A stretch of DNA of 64,000 bases from Candidatus Bathyarchaeota archaeon (GCA_963828195.1 CAWHDT010000003.1:160001-224000); one strand, 5' to 3'; counted from the first letter of the stretch, positions 4,415 to 64,000 are shown. Notes: generated from the letters alone by a model not told the origin. Made by a program: numbers and translations.

Positions 4415-6691
4415 ATGTACGAGTGTGCGACGGAAATGTTGTCTCGTTCAGCCAAAGTTAAATTGAAAGCGATTTTGATTATTGACATAATTATTATAGG
4501 CGGAGCTGCAGGAGCCTATCTTTATCTTCAAAATCGGGGACTGATCGCAAATGCAGCTAAACCAGCTACTTTTACTATAACAGACCTCACTATCGATCCT
4601 CCAGTAGCAAACGTGACAGATGCCATAGAAATCTCAGTCAACGTAACAAACGTGGGCGCTTTAGAAGGCAACGCAACAATAAATCTTGAAATTAACAATG
4701 CAACAAAAAACACCGAGAACGTAACGCTTACAGGCGGAGGATCTCAACTTGTCCAGTTTACCGATATAGAAACAACGCCGGGGAATTATACTGTGCAAAT
4801 TGGTGACTTGACGGGAATGTTTACAATTAATCCTGCTCCGCCAGGGTCAAGTAAGATAATATTGTCTAACCTGTTTTTTTCGCCGTATGAAGTCTGGCCA
4901 AATCAACCTGTTAACGTGACGGCAACCGCTGAAAACCCGACTGACCAGCCTGACAGCCTTGCTGTTACGGTTTCGCTTGATGGCACAGCTGTGGAAACTA
5001 ATGTTATTTCGGTAAATGCAAGCACGAGCGAAATTGTAGAATTTACTGTTAATGCTACAACGTTAGGATGGCACACTGTTAATCTGAACACATTAAGCGG
5101 GCAATTCTCAGTTGTTAAGACCGGTTACCACACGCTTTTAATTAACAGGTCTGGCGGAGGCTCCACACCTTTACCCTTCACCTTAAACGGAGCAGGCTAT
5201 AACACGCCTTTCAGTCAACTTATGCCCGTGGGGCAATACACCATAACTGTCCCAAGTCCATTTAGCGTTGGAACCGGGGTGCTGGCGTTTTCTTATTGGG
5301 AAGATGGCGAAACTAATCCGACGCGAACTTTCACGTTAAATCAAGATATGATAGTGATTGCAACGTACACTTTGATTAGTGGATATGCCTCTTGTCCGTC
5401 GCTTTATACTTGGAATGGAACAGCCTACTCTTACGTCACTGACGTTTCAAATGCCGGTTGGTTGGGATACACCGGGTACATGACAAGTAGCGGCAGCATT
5501 GTGAATATAGGCGGAAACCCCTGGGACAACGTGAAACTTAACCAAAACCAGATGGCGTTAACAGACATTGACGGCACCAACTGCTATGACATGACTCTTT
5601 TCCAGCAAGCCGATGAACTCTTCTACTTAGACGCGGCATATTTGCTAGTTGTTGATCACCCAGCAGGCACCAACGTCTACTCAAGTGTAACTAATTATCT
5701 TAACCAAGGGTTAAATGATCAAATCTACACGGTAAACCAAACTACCACAACATCCCCTCTCAGCGCGACTTATGTTTGGGGACCAAACGGCACCAACGCT
5801 CAAGGCGAAAATGTCTTGCCTCAAATTTCGAAGCTTGATGGTGTTTTCACGCCTGGAAACAGCGGAGATCTTAGCCCCTCCTGGAATAACATCTACTTTA
5901 ATCAGTTAACAATGGACTTAGGAAACCTATCCTCGGCAAACACAATCAAACTTGAAATAAACGGAATTGTCGATTGGGGTTCACCAGTTGACTATGACAA
6001 TTGGATAGCCAGCTTTAAGGCGGCAGCTGCACAGGGACTGGTAGCTACTGGAACACAAATAACGCCGCCCGCTTACATGGAAATTAAATATCCAAACGGC
6101 ACCTGGGTTCCTGTTCCGCAGAGTAGGCAGATGCCAATCCCGTCGGATTCTAACCCAAGAACTTTCGTGGTGGATTTAACTGGGCTATTCCCAGCTGGTT
6201 TAAGCGATTACCAGATCAAAATTGTCAATTTCTGGAATGTAACCTACGACTACATCGGAGTTGACACCAGCACGCAACAGAACATAACAATTCAAAAAAT
6301 CAGCCCAATCGCAACCCTAAGCCAAGTGTGGACAACCAACTCGACTTCTTCAGGAAACTTTACACAATATGGAAACGTAACGGCGCTGCTTCAAAGCGCA
6401 GACAACCAATATGTAATCGGACGCCAAGGCGACGAAGTTACTATGGAGTTTCCCGTCAGCAATTTAACGGCTCCTGCCCCAGGCATGGTTAGAGACTACT
6501 TCTTCTTCGTAGCATGCTGGTTTAAAGATCCGCCCGGAGGTTGGGGCTACGGATTCACCTTTACAGTAGACCCAATGCCTTTCCTCGGAATGACCGGATT
6601 TCCATACTCGACAGCTGAAAGCTACCCCTACACCGCAGCGAACCTGGCGTACCTGAAAGAGTACAATACGCGGGTAATTCCTACTTCATAA
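4415..6691 (+). CDS. large N-terminally anchored extracellular protein: CARDB-like Ig domains plus a C-terminal SCPxLYxWNG...YPY...YNTR domain
   Basis: N-terminal TM helix, two CARDB-like repeats, many NxS/T sequons. The C-terminal domain resembles that of ASPIC/UnbV-type proteins (from recall, unverified). Confidence 0.8.
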   Translation: MYECATEMLSRSAKVKLKAILIIDIIIIGGAAGAYLYLQNRGLIANAAKPATFTITDLTIDPPVANVTDAIEISVNVTNVGALEGNATINLEINNATKNTENVTLTGGGSQLVQFTDIETTPGNYTVQIGDLTGMFTINPAPPGSSKIILSNLFFSPYEVWPNQPVNVTATAENPTDQPDSLAVTVSLDGTAVETNVISVNASTSEIVEFTVNATTLGWHTVNLNTLSGQFSVVKTGYHTLLINRSGGGSTPLPFTLNGAGYNTPFSQLMPVGQYTITVPSPFSVGTGVLAFSYWEDGETNPTRTFTLNQDMIVIATYTLISGYASCPSLYTWNGTAYSYVTDVSNAGWLGYTGYMTSSGSIVNIGGNPWDNVKLNQNQMALTDIDGTNCYDMTLFQQADELFYLDAAYLLVVDHPAGTNVYSSVTNYLNQGLNDQIYTVNQTTTTSPLSATYVWGPNGTNAQGENVLPQISKLDGVFTPGNSGDLSPSWNNIYFNQLTMDLGNLSSANTIKLEINGIVDWGSPVDYDNWIASFKAAAAQGLVATGTQITPPAYMEIKYPNGTWVPVPQSRQMPIPSDSNPRTFVVDLTGLFPAGLSDYQIKIVNFWNVTYDYIGVDTSTQQNITIQKISPIATLSQVWTTNSTSSGNFTQYGNVTALLQSADNQYVIGRQGDEVTMEFPVSNLTAPAPGMVRDYFFFVACWFKDPPGGWGYGFTFTVDPMPFLGMTGFPYSTAESYPYTAANLAYLKEYNTRVIPTS

Positions 6692-59168: not shown

Positions 59169-59612
59169 GTGAAAAATATGTATAGAACTGGCGTCGCGAA
59201 TCTTCCGTTTCACGGCGGCAAAGCTCCTTCATGGCTTACCGTGCGCATGCGTAAGTTAGCCAAAGAAATAGCGGATATTATGGTTGAGGAGCAGGGCACA
59301 GCCAAGTTTATTGAGCGGTTATCTGACCCCTACTGGTTTCAAGCATTCGGCTGCGTCTTAGCCTATGACTGGCACAGCAGCGGAGTAACAACCGTCGTCA
59401 CCGGCATCCTCAAAGGCGCCCTATCGCCGGAAGAGCACGGCATCGCCGTCTGCAGAGGAAAAGGCAAAACCTCAAGAAAAACACCCGCCGACATAGCTTT
59501 GGCTGGCGAAAAATTCGGTTTTTCAGAAGAAACAATCAAAACGCTTACCTACAACAGCAAAATGGCTGCGAAAATAGACAACACCGCCATCCAAGCAGGA
59601 TACCAGCTTTGA
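59169..59612 (+). pseudogene. DUF763 gene 5' part, truncated by the integrated element
   Basis: G.ANLP.HGGKAP.WL, LSDPYWFQAFGCVL..DWHSSG.TT, AKIDNTAIQAGYQL* stops where the family continues (YHH). Confidence 0.88.
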
Positions 59613-59643
59613 ATACATGTTTTTTTCTCGATTACCATGCTTT

Positions 59644-60942
59644 TCACGTGAGCCTACTGTATAGCTTACAGGTTTTTCCGTTCTCGTCAAGCATGGTATC
59701 AAACAGTTCATAGCACATTTGCCTAGCTTCTTCTGCTTGCTCTATCGTATAGACTCGCATTGTCTCATAGCTGCAGTTTTCGTCATCAAAGTCGCCAAAA
59801 TATTTCTCTGTTGAACTTAACCGTTTATGCCCTAGTCGAGCTTGTACTTTTCTCACGTTGAACTGAGTTTTCTTATAGGTTTGGTCTGCAAAATATCGCC
59901 GAAAACTGTGATGATGGATATTAAGCAAATTTGGCATCTGAAGTTTGTCAGCGATTCTTTTCCTGGAACGTGCAAAAGTTGACTGTAGAGCGCGTTTATT
60001 CGGGTTAAAGACGTATGGCGCGTACTTTTTTGGCAAAGATTGAAGCATTGTAATAGTCTGTTGACTAACGTGGATTTTGCGAGATCTGCTTCCCTTTTCT
60101 GGGTGGTTGATATAGACTATTTGACCCGTTACGTCTATCTCATTCCATTGTAACCGCGAAACCTCACCTATTCGAGCGCCGCAATCTGCCAACAACATAC
60201 AAAGCGCTCTTTGTTGTTTGCCGAGATTCTGAAGTAATGTTGTAACTTCATAGGGTTTTGGCGTGTATTGCTGTTTAGGCTCATAGGCGATTTTGGGTTT
60301 TTTAAAAGGAATATCAAACGCCCCGGCGTAACTGATGTATGCCTGAACGTAATGGAATTTTGATGCTGGCGAGAACTGTTCCGTCATCAGAACCGTTAAA
60401 AGACTGTCTGGATTGCTTAAGTTTACACCTTTTTTTCTAAGCGCATTGAGACGTAAAACTCTATGTGTTATGGTTGCGTCTGCTATACCGCGTTTCTTCT
60501 CTTTCCATGCGTATTCTATTAGACTATCTTTTTCTCCCACGCAAACAGTCTTTTCTGCTTGCGATTCCAAATTTTTCGTCTCCTTGACGCATATTTGAAA
60601 CTTACTATTATAGAAAGGTAAAGTATTTAACTCTTTTTCTACAATAGAAAGGCATGATGCATTATGAGAACCTACATCTTCACCGAAAACGAGAGACGCA
60701 CCGTTAGAAACTTTCTCAACGGCACCATCACACGAAGCGATCCCAACCTCATGACGATTCTTTCCAGAATCAAAAGTTTCATCGACCTTTCCAGCGATAT
60801 TGACCTTTACGTCAAGTTGAGAGAAACGGTACCCACAGTTTCGGCATAAATAACGCTGTACTTGAGAACCATTATCTAGATAGCGTAAGCCGTCTTTGTA
60901 ATGACGATCTGAACTGCATTGAGGGCAACAACTAACAACCAT
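59644..60942 (-). CDS. tyrosine recombinase/integrase with N-terminal IS1-InsA-like Zn ribbon
   Basis: GARIGE (R), EKG (K), HSFRR (HxxR), LGH, TEKY (Y); CPQC...YKDG.R...QRYLCRNCGYRF. Confidence 0.95.
   Translation of the reverse strand: MVVSCCPQCSSDRHYKDGLRYLDNGSQVQRYLCRNCGYRFSQLDVKVNIAGKVDETFDSGKNRHEVGIASCDGAVEKVSNGASLVFGEDVGSHNASCLSIVEKELNTLPFYNSKFQICVKETKNLESQAEKTVCVGEKDSLIEYAWKEKKRGIADATITHRVLRLNALRKKGVNLSNPDSLLTVLMTEQFSPASKFHYVQAYISYAGAFDIPFKKPKIAYEPKQQYTPKPYEVTTLLQNLGKQQRALCMLLADCGARIGEVSRLQWNEIDVTGQIVYINHPEKGSRSRKIHVSQQTITMLQSLPKKYAPYVFNPNKRALQSTFARSRKRIADKLQMPNLLNIHHHSFRRYFADQTYKKTQFNVRKVQARLGHKRLSSTEKYFGDFDDENCSYETMRVYTIEQAEEARQMCYELFDTMLDENGKTCKLYSRLT
60664..60849 (+). CDS. 61-aa antisense ORF nested in the integrase gene
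   Basis: MRTYIFTENERRTVRNFLNG...LSSDIDLYVKLRE, amphipathic helical pattern; own TATA (TATTTAA 60624-60630). Confidence 0.6.
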   Translation: MRTYIFTENERRTVRNFLNGTITRSDPNLMTILSRIKSFIDLSSDIDLYVKLRETVPTVSA

Positions 60943-61212
60943 CTTTCTGCTACCAAAACACAGCGAGGCTACCTATCTTTAAATAATTTTCCGTTAAAAA
61001 TTATAGGGTTTTAGGCAGTACAAAAAAATAACATTTATTCAGAAATTTAGCTAAAATTAAGCCTTAAATTGTAAAATACCACTGTTTTCAGCTAATTTAT
61101 TGAAATTTTCACAAGCCAAAAAAATAGACAACTAGAAAACACAACTCGTGTGTTTTATCCAAAAATTTTGCTGGAGGAGGGAGGGGTAGCAGATCCTCCT
61201 AACCCCAGGCGA

Positions 61213-61323
61213 TTAGGCGCCCGCGAAGGTAATAAAAAATGAGTCGAACGCATATAAGACCCACTTCGCCCAGACAATGAGCGTGACACGGACGCCCAAC
61301 CAGCACCTATACAAGGTACCCAT
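61213..61323 (-). CDS. 36-aa hydrophobic micro-ORF MGTLYRCWLGVRVTLIVWAKWVLYAFDSFFITFAGA
   Basis: Begins 6 nt after the stop of 61330-61677; could form a TM helix. Confidence 0.4.
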   Translation of the reverse strand: MGTLYRCWLGVRVTLIVWAKWVLYAFDSFFITFAGA

Positions 61324-61329
61324 GAAGAT

Positions 61330-61677
61330 TTAAGGATTTTTGGTTTTCCAAGGCTTTTTCTGGTATCCCAGAGCATGAGCTTTGTCTGAAAGCAAGACTT
61401 TTCCGCCCGCGATGCAAGAATCGGTCGCAGCAGCTTGCGCGTTATCAATGTCCATGCCTGAAACTCTGAATTTTGAGAACTCTGACATTTCGCACATTGG
61501 ATTAGCCCGCGCGCCGTAAGCGATCAGTAACGCTTCTACGTCCAATGGTGCCTCTATACCTTCAGTTTCAGTCAAAACAGGAGCTGATTCCTCAGCTTTC
61601 GACTCTGCTAAATCGTCCAAACCAAGCTTGTAGCTTCGGGTTTTAATTTTCCCTGGCTCATAAGCATCAAGTGACAT
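61330..61677 (-). CDS. element hypothetical protein
   Basis: 115-aa ORF with GAGGT SD and TTTATA TATA upstream. Confidence 0.65.
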   Translation of the reverse strand: MSLDAYEPGKIKTRSYKLGLDDLAESKAEESAPVLTETEGIEAPLDVEALLIAYGARANPMCEMSEFSKFRVSGMDIDNAQAAATDSCIAGGKVLLSDKAHALGYQKKPWKTKNP

Positions 61678-62174
61678 TTTTACATCATTACCTCAAAAAC
61701 ATGTATAAACTACAAGATATATTAGCTTTTCCGAAAATTTTTACAGTAGTCACTTTCCTATCAAACGTCCAAAAAAAGACCATACCCCATGAGAACGTTT
61801 CCCATAGCGCAATTTCTGGCCAGTAAACAACTGTTTAGAGCGTCTGTACAACCACATACACCCACTATATGGCTTACGTCCGTTCACTTGTATTCGACTG
61901 AACCTGATGCCCTAGGCGTGCCTAACAAAAAAGACCCGTAGCTACGAGTTGACAACAGGCGAGCCTGTCATGTAGACAACCCATCTTTTTCAACTCAAAC
62001 CCCTACCTGGACACAACAAAGTACTCGACTCTTTTTGACCTAACAGGAAAAACCGATTTTTTACATCAGGGCAGTCTTCAAAAAACAAAAATGAAGAAAT
62101 ATGAACGGTTCCCATCCACGACTAGCACTTTTTACACGAAAAAAGCCAGACTAGGAAGCAAAAAACATCACTCG

Positions 62175-62363
62175 TCAATATTTCCAGTCCTTAGTTCCGC
62201 ATGCAGGACACCGAAGAGGCAGCTTTTCAGATCGCGCACGCCAAACCCGACCGCAGTGAGCACATTTACATAACAACCGCCTTTTAGCACGCCGATGCCT
62301 CGGCGCCAACGGAACAGAACTCCGCCTAATCCGATATCTACGCCCATAATGATACCTGTACAC
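62175..62363 (-). CDS. Arg-rich zinc-ribbon protein
   Basis: CAHCG..W......P..CPACG...W motif; abuts the upstream ORF stop. Confidence 0.7.
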   Translation of the reverse strand: MYRYHYGRRYRIRRSSVPLAPRHRRAKRRLLCKCAHCGRVWRARSEKLPLRCPACGTKDWKY

Positions 62364-62714
62364 TCAATGAAACTCCTCAAAATTAGCAAGATCACGATAC
62401 AATTCATCTAAAAGCTCCTTTGCGTCATGAACTAAGGGCAGCGCCTCAAATTGGTAATGAGAACGCCTCAGTTCATCCAAAATAAGGATAATTTGGCTTG
62501 TTTTTACAACAACATCAGCCTCACGGACGATCTTTTCCGTTAAAACCTCTTCCTCTCCCACGTCATCCACCTCTGTATACTTGGCTACTCCAATTTCTAC
62601 CTGAAAAACCTCTTTTTCCCTCAGCCTTTCCACCTTATCCACCATGAAAGCTACTTTTCTACTCAATATTATCCACCTGGATCCTTTTTCTTCCAACGCT
62701 CCAAATAGATCCAA
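62364..62714 (-). CDS. element hypothetical protein
   Basis: 116-aa acidic ORF overlapping the Rep 3' end (start may be the internal Met near 62646). Confidence 0.65.
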   Translation of the reverse strand: MDLFGALEEKGSRWIILSRKVAFMVDKVERLREKEVFQVEIGVAKYTEVDDVGEEEVLTEKIVREADVVVKTSQIILILDELRRSHYQFEALPLVHDAKELLDELYRDLANFEEFH

Positions 62715-63907
62715 CCTTCACGTGAAGGCAAGTAAGCAACGTACCCCTCTTCTTCCTCGGCAAGCCCTAATTTTTTGTCGCCAACATAAACGATATCCTG
62801 CAGGACGTGACCCCATGGACACTGCTCTTCTTTTTTGCCGTGTAATTCTGACTTTTTAAGGGGAAGTTTGGAATATCCCAAGCTACCAAACCAAGTTACT
62901 ACGTGCCCATGACCAGGAGGCACGCTTGCATGCCCCAACTCATAGAAAATCGTACCAGCTAGGCTATTCCGTAACCCTTTGTTTTTCTGGAAAAAACCCG
63001 CATTCTTTTGAACTTTCAAGGCATTACTACGAGTAGCAACAATACATACGTCACCCTCTTTGTAAAGGGAAGTTTGCAATACTGGAGTACCCTTACAATG
63101 TACCCAACCATACGTGTAAACCTCAGCTATTTTATCTCCGTCAATATCCTTAGAATAACCTACAAAATGAAAATGAGGGCTAAAATAAGGCTTTCCATGA
63201 TTAAACCGTTTCGAGTGAAAAACACAACTGCCACCTTCAAAACCGACCAGCTTAGCGGCTATTAACGAAAAACGCTTCATTTTTGCGACGCTCCAAGTGT
63301 AAAATTTGGCTGGAACACTCACAAAATAGTGTAGTTGCTTACCTTCCGTCCCGTTTTTTTCATCATAAGCAACAAATCGTTTAAGCTGCCTAGCAGTTTC
63401 GCGCGCACGCCAACGCTGCAGGCAAATCGGACAGCTAGGCCTATGGCACCAAAAACGCTGAACCCTAACAAAAGCACCATTAGCCAAACATTCATCATGG
63501 ACGACAAGATTTTGGTGAATCGCATCATCCAACTGTTTAGGTTCATGGTCTTCCAAGCAGCCTACAAAAAAAGGCATCCCACACGTAGTTTTAGCGTGCC
63601 CATGACCAACCAAATCCCAGTCAGCTTCAAAAATCTGGAAAGGCAGATCAGCCAAAATAGTGTTACTTGGGATATTACTGATAATAGCCTCGTCGTCGCC
63701 ACTTGGCGACGTGGGCGGGATACCCGACGCTAAAAAACGTACTTCATCAAACTCTAGGACTTGCTCATCGGTCAATTTTAAAATCTGCTTTCCAACTGCC
63801 GAAAGAACACCAGTATTTTTGAAATCGTTAGCTTCTTGGATTAAACCAGCAGACCATAACTTACAATAAATATAGTTGGATCGATCCAGCTCCTGAAGAA
63901 CTGACAA
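62669..63907 (-). CDS. rep: rolling-circle replication initiator (HUH endonuclease)
   Basis: Motif I HYFVSVP, motif II SPHFHFVGY, motif III FYELGH, N-terminal CHRPSCPIC Zn motif. Confidence 0.85.
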   Translation of the reverse strand: MSVLQELDRSNYIYCKLWSAGLIQEANDFKNTGVLSAVGKQILKLTDEQVLEFDEVRFLASGIPPTSPSGDDEAIISNIPSNTILADLPFQIFEADWDLVGHGHAKTTCGMPFFVGCLEDHEPKQLDDAIHQNLVVHDECLANGAFVRVQRFWCHRPSCPICLQRWRARETARQLKRFVAYDEKNGTEGKQLHYFVSVPAKFYTWSVAKMKRFSLIAAKLVGFEGGSCVFHSKRFNHGKPYFSPHFHFVGYSKDIDGDKIAEVYTYGWVHCKGTPVLQTSLYKEGDVCIVATRSNALKVQKNAGFFQKNKGLRNSLAGTIFYELGHASVPPGHGHVVTWFGSLGYSKLPLKKSELHGKKEEQCPWGHVLQDIVYVGDKKLGLAEEEEGYVAYLPSREGWIYLERWKKKDPGG

Positions 63908-63908
63908 C

Positions 63909-64000
63909 CTAGTGACGCCTCTCTGCTGCTCTTGCAGAGTCAGCCTCTTTTGAGGCTGTAAACGACTCTTTTTTAGAAGTAGCCTTTATTTTAGCCTCGT
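63909..64000 (-). CDS. 3' end of an element ORF upstream of rep (partial)
   Basis: ...EAKIKATSKKESFTASKEADSARAAERRH* ends immediately before the rep TTG. Confidence 0.45.
   Translation of the reverse strand, partial: EAKIKATSKKESFTASKEADSARAAERRH

What the first reader, a model, noticed from the sequence alone, without database searches (positions are those of the whole stretch)
59169..64000. Rolling-circle element integrated into a protein-coding DUF763 gene
Seen: DUF763 stops at ...IQAGYQL*, followed 31 nt later by the 3' end of a tyrosine integrase, then small ORFs and a HUH Rep with a Zn motif and a single-Tyr YELGH motif III. Established: such Reps drive archaeal rolling-circle plasmids and pleolipovirus-like viruses, and archaeal integrases usually target tRNA genes. 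Inference: a probably undescribed bathyarchaeal RCR provirus or plasmid using a conserved protein gene as attB, so integration would switch DUF763 off and excision restore it.
Basis: partly seen in the sequence, partly recalled or inferred. Interest (0 to 1): 0.7.

Follow-up and report, generated by a model that had tools for sequence, protein, structure and literature searches.

The report
Integrated mini-plasmid splitting a DUF763 gene
A 4.6-kb plasmid-like element carrying its own integrase and a rolling-circle-type replication gene sits exactly in the middle of a conserved archaeal gene of unknown function. The uninterrupted gene also occurs in the environment, so the insertion is a real, precise and probably reversible event, though of an already known general kind.

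Summary

- **Split gene.** The DUF763 gene stops at IQAGYQL*. Its missing half (…LYHH…) lies 4.6 kb downstream, just past the window end.
- **Element.** The 4,633-bp insert is bounded by a 6-nt core, AGCTTT. It carries an intact tyrosine integrase, a small conserved ORF followed by the Rep gene, and three small ORFs.
- **Empty site.** One public run holds a 429-nt contig, identical to both flanks, that joins them across the core. That is the intact gene.
- **Recurrence.** Five other genomes of the same order have an integrase-bearing insert at the same codon. One is a 4.3-kb sister element, three are 13.5–17.5 kb, and one is cut by a contig end. One of the large inserts carries an MCM-like helicase and no Rep.
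- **Rep.** It has no Pfam hit, but its family profile matches RepA of haloarchaeal virus SNJ1 (hhalign 98.6 %, E 1e-15), which papers call a rolling-circle initiator. It also matches pC194 Rep weakly. Relatives sit on 1.7–3.2-kb contigs that look circular, with no capsid-sized gene.

So this is an integrative mini-plasmid, not a pleolipovirus-like provirus. A regulated on/off switch of DUF763 is not shown. In passing: a conserved antisense gene lies inside the integrase linker.

The parts
59169..59612 (+). DUF763 gene, 5' half (147 codons plus a TGA stop created at the junction). The 3' half (...LYHHAF... to the natural stop) lies beyond the window end, at window-equivalent 64225-64944 (L004 6225-6944).
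   Evidence: PF05559 E 1e-57, profile positions 1-139 of 319. Relatives read on as ...QAGYQLYHHAF.... The 3' half matches PF05559 profile 136-319 at E 6.6e-63; its ORF is.
59605..59610 (.). attL core AGCTTT (crossover region, codons Q146-L147 and the first base of the next codon). The matching attR core lies beyond the window end, at window-equivalent 64238-64243 (L004 6238-6243), 4,633 bp away.
   Evidence: The empty-site contig has 6 letters that fit either side.
59644..60942 (-). Tyrosine integrase, 432 aa: N-terminal IS1-type Zn ribbon (CPQC at 6, CRNC at 33), long linker, catalytic domain. Read by eye: R257, H345-x-x-R348, H372, Y381.
   Evidence: PF00589 E 5e-20; NF050000 Zn domain E 3.4e-6; motif positions; alignment A4. 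The gene is intact, not split by integration.
60664..60849 (+). orf61p: 61-aa gene nested antisense in the integrase linker
   Evidence: The ORF is open in all 13 loci examined: 56-65 aa in 12, and running off the held stretch in 1 (L059). Amino-acid identity is higher than in the integrase frame in 26 of 28 pairs. Substitutions run pos3 0.525 > pos1 0.443 > pos2 0.272 in its own frame. No family hit.
61330..61677 (-). orf115, small ORF of unknown function
   Evidence: No Pfam, PHROG, NCBIfam or PADLOC hit. No homologue in the sister elements.
62175..62363 (-). 62-aa Zn-ribbon ORF
   Evidence: Only sub-threshold Zn-ribbon hits (DUF7130 E 7.8e-5, below cut-off).
62364..62714 (-). orf116, acidic small ORF that overlaps the Rep stop
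   Evidence: no family hit.
62669..63907 (-). Rep, 412 aa: GHGHAK..CG, Cys cluster C154/C159/C162, H193 (motif I-like), H245-F-H247 (HUH), Y322-E-L-G-H326, C-terminal Cys motif
   Evidence: Invariant columns in 52- and 74-sequence alignments. Profile vs SNJ1 RepA: hhalign 98.6 %, E 1.2e-15; hmmsearch 65 bits. Profile vs pC194 Rep: 26.8 bits; hhalign E 1.2e-4.
63909..64000 (-). orf75 (75 aa). Its full extent is window-equivalent 63909-64136, so it runs past the window end. Small conserved ORF directly upstream of rep.
   Evidence: Homologues lie upstream of rep in L021 and L023 and on metagenome contigs, including circle-like ones.

Best explanation
This is a 4,633-bp integrative mini-plasmid inserted by its own tyrosine integrase into codons 146-148 of a conserved DUF763 gene of a Bathyarchaeia genome.

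Shown:
- The gene is split exactly there.
- The two junctions share the 6-nt core AGCTTT.
- The element side supplies GA, so a TGA stop follows Leu147 at once.
- The integrase gene stays whole.
- The precise uninterrupted gene exists in an environmental sample that also holds element sequence.
- Related integrases sit at the same codon in five other genomes, with different cargo.

Inferred:
- The excised form is a circle whose attP contains AGCTTT.
- The integrase recombines attP with the attB inside the invariant QAGYQLYHH coding stretch, exchanging strands within the 6-nt overlap.
- The free circle replicates by a rolling-circle mechanism. Rep, a homologue of SNJ1 RepA with a Cys cluster, an HUH motif (H245-F-H247) and Tyr322, would nick an origin that I could not locate. 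The small orf75 protein would be a conserved accessory.
- While integrated, DUF763 is knocked out; excision restores it.

Whether this on/off state is regulated or merely a by-product is open.
For: - **Split gene and core.**
- **Empty site.** Run X1 holds a 429-nt contig with 0 mismatches covering L004 1335-1604 and 6238-6396. It skips 4,633 bp, and 6 letters fit either side. The same run holds element pieces. In run X4 a contig spans attL (1508-1738).
- **Intact sites in relatives.** 26 of 26 intact relatives' sites read (Q/P/K)LYHHA at this point. 28 of 41 relatives carry a full-length DUF763.
- **Recurrence.** A DUF763 N-half lies next to an integrase in 5 of the 29 other best integrase loci: G415, G441, G389, G463 and G333. 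The C-halves lie about 4.3, 13.5, 14.5 and 17.5 kb away. All junctions fall after CARCTYT and are followed at once by a stop.
- **Modularity.** G000 and L021 share the int/att module (71 % nt over 989 nt) but their Reps are only 28 % identical. L021 and L023 share the Rep module. The G441 element carries an MCM-like helicase instead.
- **Integrase.** PF00589, with R257, H345..R348, H372 and Y381 present.
- **Rep.** hhalign of the family profile against SNJ1 RepA gives 98.6 %, E 1.2e-15, over 176 columns that include the Cys cluster, motif I, HUH and the Y-x-L-S-H motif. hmmsearch gives 65.3 bits. SNJ1 RepA is described as the HUH initiator of rolling-circle replication (PMC12642351, passages).
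- **Free replicons.** 12 of 80 metagenome contigs with a Rep relative have exact terminal repeats of 56-127 nt. The units are 1.67-3.18 kb. All encode Rep, and most also a small orf75-like ORF, some an RHH-like one.
Against: - No circular junction (attP) was seen, neither in the four runs laid nor among 80 metagenome loci.
- No origin was identified. The recalled pC194-type nick motif CTTGATA is absent from the element. No hairpin is shared by the three elements.
- Fold searches gave HUH nucleases as top rows, but only at Z 4.2-4.9, tied with RRM and S6 folds. Foldseek gave nothing at E <= 0.001.
- Rep has no hit in Pfam, PHROGs or NCBIfam.
- A 6-nt core is far shorter than the att sites reported for crenarchaeal elements (29-69 bp; PMC6563490, passages).
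- The empty-site contig could come from a sister strain that never carried the element, rather than from excision.
- Most empty sites in relatives read AACTCT, not AGCTTT. Only 3 of 26 hold AGCTTT.
Confidence: 0.8

Rival explanations
1. It is a small provirus (pleolipovirus-like or other) rather than a plasmid. The small ORFs would encode virion proteins.
For: - HUH Reps also drive some archaeal viruses. SNJ1 itself is a virus.
- The sister elements L021 and L023 each carry one or two small ORFs with hydrophobic stretches (read by eye).
Against: - Apart from Int and Rep, no ORF that I take as a gene exceeds 116 aa, so there is no room for a spike or capsid gene.
- The small ORFs have no PHROG or Pfam hit.
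- No relative was found in the IMG/VR viral contigs (0 confirmed) or in 50,697 phage records by tblastn.
- The circle-like relatives of 1.7-3.2 kb have no second ORF of capsid size that I take as a gene. The other long ORFs printed (up to 194 aa) overlap rep.
Confidence: 0.06
2. It is a decaying, immobile remnant. The insertion is old and fixed, and DUF763 is simply a pseudogene here.
For: - No attP was seen.
- One of the related insertions (G389) has an integrase broken into three pieces.
- DUF763 was not found in 4 of 30 high-quality relatives, so it looks dispensable.
Against: - Int, Rep, orf75 and orf61p are all open and full length.
- The flanks of the empty-site contig are identical to this genome over 270 + 159 nt.
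- Both halves of DUF763 are still 85-94 % identical in protein to close relatives and carry no further stops.
Confidence: 0.1
3. The HUH protein acts as an IS91-like rolling-circle transposase that moved the element, and the integrase is a passenger.
For: - SNJ1 RepA is said to be homologous to IS91 transposases. I saw this only as the title of Wang et al. 2018 in reference lists.
- The Atlas look-alike clusters carry Zn_Tnp_IS91 on 10-20 % of members (a lead only).
Against: - Insertions at the same codon occur with the same integrase clade but without this Rep (G441; no Rep relative in L084-L086).
- Only one invariant Tyr lies in the motif.
- The Rep family occurs on tiny circle-like contigs.
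- The genome holds only one copy of the element.
Confidence: 0.03
4. The junction is an assembly chimera.
For: The genome is a metagenome-type assembly in 9 contigs.
Against: - The same architecture appears in the independent assemblies G415 (L021), G441, G389 and G463.
- A public contig bridges attL (X4).
- The skip is base-precise in X1.
Confidence: 0.01

Closest known systems
RepA of haloarchaeal virus SNJ1 (Simuloviridae), an HUH rolling-circle initiator said to be related to IS91 transposases
   Same: The family profile aligns over 176 columns: LPG.G..CG, the C..CP.C..W cluster, H..(V/I)S.P, (S/R)PH(F/V)H..G and RSV....Y.LSH (hhalign 98.6 %, E 1.2e-15; 65 bits). Like our Rep, SNJ1 RepA has no Pfam hit.
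   Different: - SNJ1 RepA is 481 aa with long inserts. It sits in a 16.5-kb virus genome with capsid genes, which is kept as an extrachromosomal episome (PMC12642351, passages).
- Ours sits in a 4.6-kb integrating element with no structural genes.
- The window's Rep belongs to a small sub-branch. It has 6 close relatives among 5.8 billion clusters, an extra N-terminal helical part and a 50-aa insert.
Thaumarchaeal cryptic integrated elements, notably NitAQ6f-E2 (Krupovic et al. 2019, PMC6563490)
   Same: Both are small integrase-bearing elements. NitAQ6f-E2 has a rolling-circle endonuclease 'homologous to that of SNJ1'. Att sites there are short (down to 8 bp, median 17), and protein-coding genes are among the targets (passages). 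Rep relatives found here lie in Nitrosarchaeum, Nitrosotalea, Nitrosotenuis and Nitrosopumilaceae contigs, with an integrase nearby in 4 of 5 thaumarchaeal loci tested.
   Different: - There, the 14 protein-gene integrations are in the 3'-distal regions. Here the insertion is after codon 147 of a gene of roughly 377 codons, so it destroys the gene.
- The host is Bathyarchaeia.
- The core is only 6 nt.
- I could not see the paper's Table S2 (supplements are closed), so I cannot say whether a DUF763-like target is listed there.
pC194/pUB110 (Rep_1, PF01446) rolling-circle plasmids of bacteria
   Same: The order of motifs is the same: Cys cluster (SCKNRFCPVC vs SC.R..CPiC), motif I (FLTLT vs HvvvS.P) and HUH (NPHFHVL vs SPHFH). 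The family HMM scores 26.8 bits against pC194 Rep; hhalign gives E 1.2e-4. Replicons are tiny, with Rep plus small regulators.
   Different: The window's Rep does not reach Pfam's Rep_1 threshold (no hit at E <= 0.01). The hhalign probability is only 55 %, and the match stops before the Tyr motif. The CTTGATA nick motif is absent. pC194 has no integrase.
pNOB8-type (non-suicidal) archaeal integrases, versus SSV-type
   Same: The integrase gene stays intact after integration. It lies at one end of the element, with its 3' end 31 nt from attL.
   Different: - It has an N-terminal IS1-type Zn ribbon and a long linker that hosts an antisense gene.
- It targets a protein-coding motif, not a tRNA gene.
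- Its place in the published classification of archaeal integrases was not tested. In PMC8371274 I saw only passages, and that paper holds no mention of 'zinc' or 'protein-coding'.
Prophages as regulatory switches in bacteria ('active lysogeny'; recalled, no paper read here)
   Same: A mobile element interrupts a chromosomal gene, and precise excision recreates the reading frame. Here both states are seen.
   Different: No condition-dependent excision, no re-integration and no phenotype are shown. The function of DUF763 is unknown.

Membership tests
Tyrosine recombinase / phage integrase (PF00589) | Catalytic domain with the R...K...H-x-x-R...H/W...Y residues | tested here: met
   PF00589 E 5e-20, above the cut-off. 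GAR257, H345-S-F-R348, H372 and Y381 are present. Assignment of residues to catalytic roles is by eye.
SSV-type ('suicidal') archaeal integrase | The att site lies inside the int gene, so the gene is split on integration | tested here: not met
   The int ORF is whole (432 aa) and lies 31 nt inside attL.
SNJ1 RepA-like HUH rolling-circle initiators | Significant sequence homology to SNJ1 RepA across the catalytic motifs | tested here: met
   hhalign 98.6 %, E 1.2e-15, 176 columns. hmmsearch 65.3 bits, E 3e-22 with Z=1. The query profile is the family alignment A3, which includes the window's Rep.
HUH endonuclease superfamily | HUH metal-binding motif on a beta strand and a catalytic Tyr on a following helix | tested here: met
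   H245-F-H247 and Y322 are invariant in 52 and 74 sequences. In the AF2 models, HUH lies in strand 239-252 and Y322 in helix 316-324. The same holds in the L021 model.
HUH endonuclease superfamily | HUH fold shown by structural match | tested here: inconclusive
   By VIA-align, HUH nucleases are 8 of the top 10 rows and 6 of the top 10 rows, at Z 4.2-4.9, rmsd 3.4-5.1 and 90-134 residues aligned. These are tied with S6 and RRM folds. Foldseek gave no match at E <= 0.001.
HUH endonuclease superfamily | Site-specific nicking of a double-strand origin, and ssDNA intermediates | not testable with these tools
   Needs biochemistry. No origin was found by motif or hairpin search.
Rep_1 (PF01446, pC194/pUB110) | Score above Pfam's gathering threshold | tested here: not met
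   The window's Rep has no hit at E <= 0.01. Of 52 family members, 1 hits at E 0.021. Remote homology is supported only weakly.
Rep-Arvir (PF25227, Rep_trans-like; PMC13107129) | DUF7845 domain with a TBP-like fold | tested here: not met
   No Pfam hit. The paper's section 28 equates Rep-Arvir with PF25227. The presence of an HUH motif also argues against it.
Pleolipovirus-like provirus | Genes for spike and membrane virion proteins and an NTPase | tested here: not met
   Apart from Int and Rep, no ORF taken as a gene exceeds 116 aa. The small ORFs have no PHROG or Pfam hit.
Gene-interrupting element acting as a regulatory switch | Precise excision restores the gene | tested here: inconclusive
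   A base-precise empty site exists in run X1 alongside element DNA. It may instead be a never-occupied sister strain.
Gene-interrupting element acting as a regulatory switch | Excision or re-integration is condition-dependent and changes a phenotype | not testable with these tools
   No culture and no expression data. All runs found are DNA contigs.

The most novel reading that the evidence does not exclude
A whole clade of Bathyarchaeia integrases has specialised on the invariant QAGYQLYHH-coding stretch of DUF763, a conserved protein that carries what reads by eye as a helix-hairpin-helix motif. Replicons as different as a 4.6-kb rolling-circle mini-plasmid and a 13.5-kb MCM-helicase element all silence this gene on entry and restore it on exit. 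On this reading DUF763 would be a host DNA-handling factor whose loss benefits the element (or whose return benefits the host). That would be the first archaeal case of a reversible, element-operated gene switch. The 61-aa gene nested antisense in the integrase linker would be its directionality or regulatory factor.
Probability: 0.12. Interest if true: 0.75.

Novelty: new variant of a known kind. Interest (0 to 1): 0.5.

Why it matters
- **A first of its type in the papers I could search.** Four virus families are proposed for Bathyarchaeia in PMC10541130 (passages). That paper holds neither 'rolling' nor 'HUH', and my searches found no paper describing a Bathyarchaeia plasmid. This locus gives a base-precise, probably active integrative replicon of only 4.6 kb, with a defined attB and attL/attR and two candidate modules (orf75-rep, and int with a nested gene). 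That is the kind of minimal part list from which shuttle or integration vectors were built for haloarchaea.
- **The SNJ1-RepA-like family is much larger than its annotation suggests.**
  - 2,223 clusters at 50 % identity match at E <= 1e-3.
  - None of the 120 best hits listed has a Pfam domain or a replication-related name.
  - The family includes tiny contigs that look circular.
- **A different style of target choice.** The elements use a 6-nt core inside a conserved protein motif. They reuse that site with swapped replication modules and destroy the gene. The thaumarchaeal elements in PMC6563490 target tRNA genes or 3'-distal gene regions instead.
- **A handle on DUF763.** The gene has no known function. 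Natural knock-outs (6 genomes) and isogenic empty sites exist for comparison.

Tried and rejected
- **Long att repeat.** The repeat finder found no long direct repeat at the ends. The core was found only by aligning relatives' intact genes.
- **tRNA target.** ARAGORN found no tRNA in L004. Rfam found an intron-bearing tRNA 70 nt downstream of DUF763, but it is not the att site.
- **Direct family hits for Rep.** Pfam, PHROGs and NCBIfam gave none. PDB sequence searches with the profiles gave nothing meaningful.
- **Rep-Arvir.** Considered after a paper search and rejected, because it is PF25227 and Rep_trans-like.
- **Origin.** CTTGATA is absent from the element. An 11-mer shared by three elements turned out to encode the conserved GILP motif of Rep. 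DNA folds showed a 7-bp hairpin only in this element, at z -2.0, with 8 of 200 shuffles folding as well.
- **attP.** No joint of circular type was seen in the four runs (contigs show presence, not absence). The element's two ends, searched separately, hit none of 80 metagenome loci.
- **Second copy or spacer matches.** blastn of the element against the whole genome gave only chance-level hits of 26 nt or less. CRISPR arrays were not searched as such.
- **Viral collections.** 0 confirmed relatives in IMG/VR and none in phage records.
- **Small ORFs and DUF763.** No PADLOC or NCBIfam assignment. A PDB sequence search with an intact DUF763 gave only a non-significant ComEA-like HhH hit at E 0.49.
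- **Papers.** 'DUF763' occurs in one unrelated paper. Searches for Bathyarchaeia mobile elements, for gene-disrupting archaeal elements and for PF01446 in archaea found nothing on this element or target.
  - Wang et al. 2018 (SNJ1 RepA / IS91) was seen only as a reference entry, not read.
  - Supplementary tables of PMC6563490 were closed and may list further targets.
- **Not followed up.** Locus L052, fetched to look at the split DUF763 of G039, was not analysed beyond tblastn.

Full report
**What is in the sequence.** The window is G000:C3:160001-224000 of a 2.83-Mb, 9-contig genome.

- At 59169-59612 (+) lies a 147-codon ORF ending IQAGYQL*. It matches Pfam DUF763 (PF05559) at E 1e-57 but covers only profile positions 1-139 of 319.
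- At 59644, 31 nt later, a 432-aa ORF on the minus strand ends (59644-60942). It matches the phage-integrase family (PF00589, E 5e-20). At its N terminus it matches an IS1/IS1595-type zinc-binding domain (NF050000, E 3.4e-6, just under its cut-off).
- Further on, all on the minus strand, come orf115 (61330-61677), a 62-aa Zn-ribbon ORF (62175-62363) and orf116 (62364-62714).
- Then comes the 412-aa 'Rep' (62669-63907), and a 75-aa ORF that runs past the window end (63909-64136).

**The other half of the gene, and the boundaries.** A search of the whole genome with PF05559 found exactly two pieces. One is the N-half. The other covers profile 136-319 at C3:224231-224812, which is 231 nt beyond the window end. 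Its ORF reads ...KLYHHAFLV....

I aligned both junctions with intact genes of the same genus. The relatives read ...GGATACCAACTCTACCACCAC... without interruption. In G000, attL is ...GGATACCAGCTTT|GAATAC... and attR is ...CATTTAAGCTTT|ATCACCAC.... The only shared letters are AGCTTT, at window 59605-59610 and 64238-64243, which are 4,633 bp apart.

The element side supplies GA after the T of the next codon, so a TGA stop follows Leu147. The repeat finder saw no longer repeat. The element's G+C (0.424) hardly differs from the rest of the window (0.441).

**It is a real, precise and probably recent insertion.** One stretch (L004:1100-7000) was sought in public runs, and four holders were laid on it.

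- Run X1 holds a 429-nt contig with no mismatch. It covers 1335-1604, then continues at 6238-6396. It skips 4,633 bp, and six letters fit either side. This is the uninterrupted DUF763 gene.
- The same run holds element-internal contigs at 99-100 % identity.
- In run X4 a contig spans attL (1508-1738).
- No circular-type joint was listed. These are contigs, which show presence and not absence.
- X1 may be the sample from which the genome was assembled, so it is not independent evidence of occurrence. It is still evidence that both states exist.

**The site is used again and again.**

- The search for related loci with the Rep alignment found a 'Candidatus Bathyarchaeota' MAG (L021). Later it proved to be the same record as G415, of the same genus.
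- In L021 the order is the same. A DUF763 N-half ends IQAGYQL*. It is followed by an integrase 69 % identical to ours over residues 116-431, then by a Rep only 28 % identical, an orf75 homologue, and the DUF763 C-half about 4.3 kb away.
- Its junctions read CCAGCTTT|GAATGTACG... and ...TTTGAGCTTT|ATCACCAC.
- A protein search with the integrase over 401 genomes of the order found homologues at E <= 1e-20 in 264.
- Among the 29 other best loci kept, five have a DUF763 N-half ending at residue 147 next to the integrase: G415, G441, G389, G463 and G333. The last two have integrases only 41-44 % identical to ours and belong to other genera.
- The C-halves lie 13.5 kb (G441), 14.5 kb (G389) and 17.5 kb (G463) away. 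G333 is cut by a contig end.
- All six junctions fall after CARCTYT and are followed at once by TGA or TAA.
- The G441 element carries an MCM-like helicase (PF00493, E 2e-12) next to the integrase. No Rep relative was found in the stretches held of it and of the other two large inserts, each of which lacks its last 1-2 kb. The G389 integrase is broken into three pieces.
- At the DNA level, G000 and L021 share the int/att module (71 % over 989 nt) and about 60 nt next to attR. L021 and L023, a third MAG where the element is not in DUF763, share the Rep module (72 % over about 1 kb).

The integrase with its att site is therefore a module that carries different replicons into the same codon.

**The target.**

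- DUF763 was found in 32 of 41 related genomes (26 of 30 high-quality ones). It is full length in 28.
- In 26 of 26 intact sites examined, the junction lies in the motif (I/V)Q(A/S/D)G(Y/H)(Q/P/K)LYHHA.
- The exact hexamer AGCTTT is present in only 3 of those 26 empty sites. Most read AACTCT. The two occupied sites in G441 and G389 read AACTCT at attL.
- Its function is unknown. There is no PADLOC hit, no meaningful NCBIfam hit, and only a non-significant ComEA-like HhH hit in the PDB. The C-terminal GVGPATVRGLA stretch looks like a helix-hairpin-helix motif by eye only.

**What the Rep is.**

- The window's protein has no hit in Pfam, PHROGs or NCBIfam. It has only six relatives by word-based search of 5.8 billion clusters.
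- A profile of these seven found 2,223 clusters at 50 % identity at E <= 1e-3, 1,464 of them at E <= 1e-10.
- In alignments of 52 and 74 members, the invariant columns are four Cys (C109, C117, C154, C159; C162 is nearly invariant), H193, H231, H245, H247, Y322, L324 and H326. F246 is invariant in the 52-sequence alignment and nearly invariant in the 74.
- AlphaFold models were made of the window's Rep (mean pLDDT 75) and of the L021 Rep (pLDDT 86). They put HUH on a strand and the Tyr on a following helix.
- Structure searches are only suggestive.
  - VIA-align against 48,161 chains ranks RepB of pMV158, vientovirus Rep, parvovirus NS1, nanovirus and smacovirus Reps, and the Helitron transposase at the top. 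They are 8 of the top 10 rows for one model and 6 of 10 for the other.
  - The scores are only Z 4.2-4.9, tied with S6 and RRM folds. Foldseek found nothing at E <= 0.001.
- The ESM Atlas listed, behind unnamed clusters, clusters carrying Rep_1 and Zn_Tnp_IS91 at scores of 0.95-0.96 (a lead only).
- I tested that lead with alignment methods.
  - The family HMM scores 26.8 bits against the Rep ORF of pC194, which is itself PF01446 at E 1.5e-58.
  - hhalign aligns the Cys cluster, motif I and HUH at E 1.2e-4, with 55 % probability.
- The decisive comparison is with RepA of the haloarchaeal virus SNJ1.
  - hhalign gives 98.6 % probability, E 1.2e-15, over 176 columns that include every conserved motif up to Y-x-L-S-H.
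  - hmmsearch gives 65.3 bits.
  - SNJ1 RepA is described as the HUH-superfamily initiator on which rolling-circle replication of that virus depends (PMC12642351, passages). It too has no Pfam hit.
- The recently described Rep-Arvir family is a different thing. It is PF25227 and Rep_trans-like (PMC13107129, abstract and section 28).

**Plasmid or virus.**

- Among 80 metagenome contigs that encode a Rep relative (the best 80 of 175 confirmed, from 229 pattern matches), 12 have exact terminal direct repeats of 56-127 nt. This is the usual assembly signature of a circle.
- Their units are 1.67-3.18 kb.
- All encode Rep. Most also have a small ORF that by eye carries the orf75-type W-ANE-LR...WWQ...NWIHR motif; tblastn with orf75 confirmed this for 1 of the 12 (L093). 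Some have a short ORF that reads like a ribbon-helix-helix regulator. The other long ORFs printed (up to 194 aa) overlap rep, and I take none as a second gene of capsid size.
- orf75 homologues also precede rep in L021 and L023.
- In the window's element, apart from Int and Rep, no ORF that I take as a gene exceeds 116 aa.
- No relative was confirmed in IMG/VR or in phage records.
- In the thaumarchaeal genome loci, an integrase lies 1-3 kb from the Rep relative in 4 of 5 tested. Two of them are next to tRNA genes.

I therefore read the element as a minimal rolling-circle-type replicon (orf75-rep) joined to an integration module. It is an integrative mini-plasmid.

**Mechanism, and what remains inferred.**

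- Shown: the anatomy, the precise empty site, recurrent use of the site, intact Int and Rep genes with the family's conserved residues, and homology to a Rep that papers describe as the rolling-circle initiator of SNJ1.
- Inferred: excision to a 4,633-bp circle with an attP around AGCTTT, strand exchange in that 6-nt overlap, nicking by Tyr322 at an origin, and loss of DUF763 function while the element is integrated.
- Not found: attP and an origin.
- The 'switch' is so far only the coexistence of two states. The empty-site contig could belong to a sister strain.

**Comparison with what is known.**

- Krupovic et al. 2019 (PMC6563490, passages) describe thaumarchaeal cryptic integrated elements. 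[quoted passage not shown] One element (NitAQ6f-E2) encodes a rolling-circle endonuclease homologous to that of SNJ1. So the kind is known.
- What differs here:
  - the host class;
  - the mid-gene position, which destroys a conserved gene;
  - the 6-nt core;
  - reuse of the site by at least two replicon types;
  - the size of the unannotated Rep family, in which none of the 120 best hits listed has a Pfam domain or a replication-related name.
- My paper searches found nothing on DUF763 as a target or on Bathyarchaeia plasmids.

**Verdict.** It is a new variant of a known kind. It is of moderate interest as it stands. It would be of higher interest if DUF763 proves to be a factor that the elements silence on purpose.

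Noticed in passing
window 60664-60849 (+), inside the integrase ORF 59644-60942 (-): A 61-aa ORF (MRTYIFTENERR...) lies antisense, codon on codon, in the integrase linker. It sits in a roughly 50-aa insertion that the L021 and L023 integrases lack. The ORF is open in all 13 loci with this integrase type: 56-65 aa in 12, and running off the held stretch in 1 (L059). Each has a start codon at the same place. Its amino-acid identity exceeds that of the integrase frame in 26 of 28 pairs. Substitutions follow its own codon phase, pos3 > pos1 > pos2. No family hit. It may be a regulator or directionality factor; that is a guess.
   Followed up: partly
L004 7014-7182 (+), which is window-equivalent 65014-65182, beyond the window: A 169-nt tRNA match in Rfam (RF00005, 38.5 bits, full model), presumably intron-bearing, lies 70 nt downstream of DUF763. 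ARAGORN missed it. The element did not use it as a target, although tRNA genes are the usual archaeal target.
   Followed up: no
metagenome loci L093, L102, L110, L117, L118, L126, L136, L143, L149, L153, L156, L162: These contigs have exact terminal repeats of 56-127 nt and units of 1.67-3.18 kb. They encode only a Rep of this family plus small ORFs. Most have an ORF that looks orf75-like by eye (tblastn-confirmed in L093 only), and some have an RHH-like one. They may be among the smallest archaeal plasmids. Their hosts are not established.
   Followed up: partly
L041 (G015:C18:81168-84161): The DUF763 gene of this same-genus genome matches in two overlapping pieces with a stop between them. 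It appears to carry a 1-nt insertion about 20 nt upstream of the att position (by eye). This could be a sequencing error, a pseudogene or a scar; I cannot tell.
   Followed up: no
G039: C99:5822-6106 and C67:1-480 (L042, L043, L052): DUF763 is split over two contigs at other positions (profile 1-96 and 170-319). About 1 kb of other sequence follows the first piece. No integrase was found there by tblastn. It could be a different insertion or an assembly break.
   Followed up: no
L085 (G389:C14:890000-903500): The integrase next to the DUF763 N-half matches in three separate pieces (residues 1-41, 113-178 and 170-432), so this 14.5-kb insertion looks decayed.
   Followed up: no
window 59633-59642 and 59689-59698 (L004 1633-1642 / 1689-1698): A perfect 10-nt inverted repeat (TACCATGCTT / AAGCATGGTA, 46 nt apart) brackets the integrase stop just inside attL. 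TTACCATG is also present at the same place in L021. It could be a terminator or an integrase arm site.
   Followed up: no
L050 (G223:C6:108462-111794): Another genome of the same genus holds a 243-aa member of the Rep family (5e-56 to the family HMM). It also touches Pfam Rep_1 weakly (E 0.0055). Its context was not examined.
   Followed up: no
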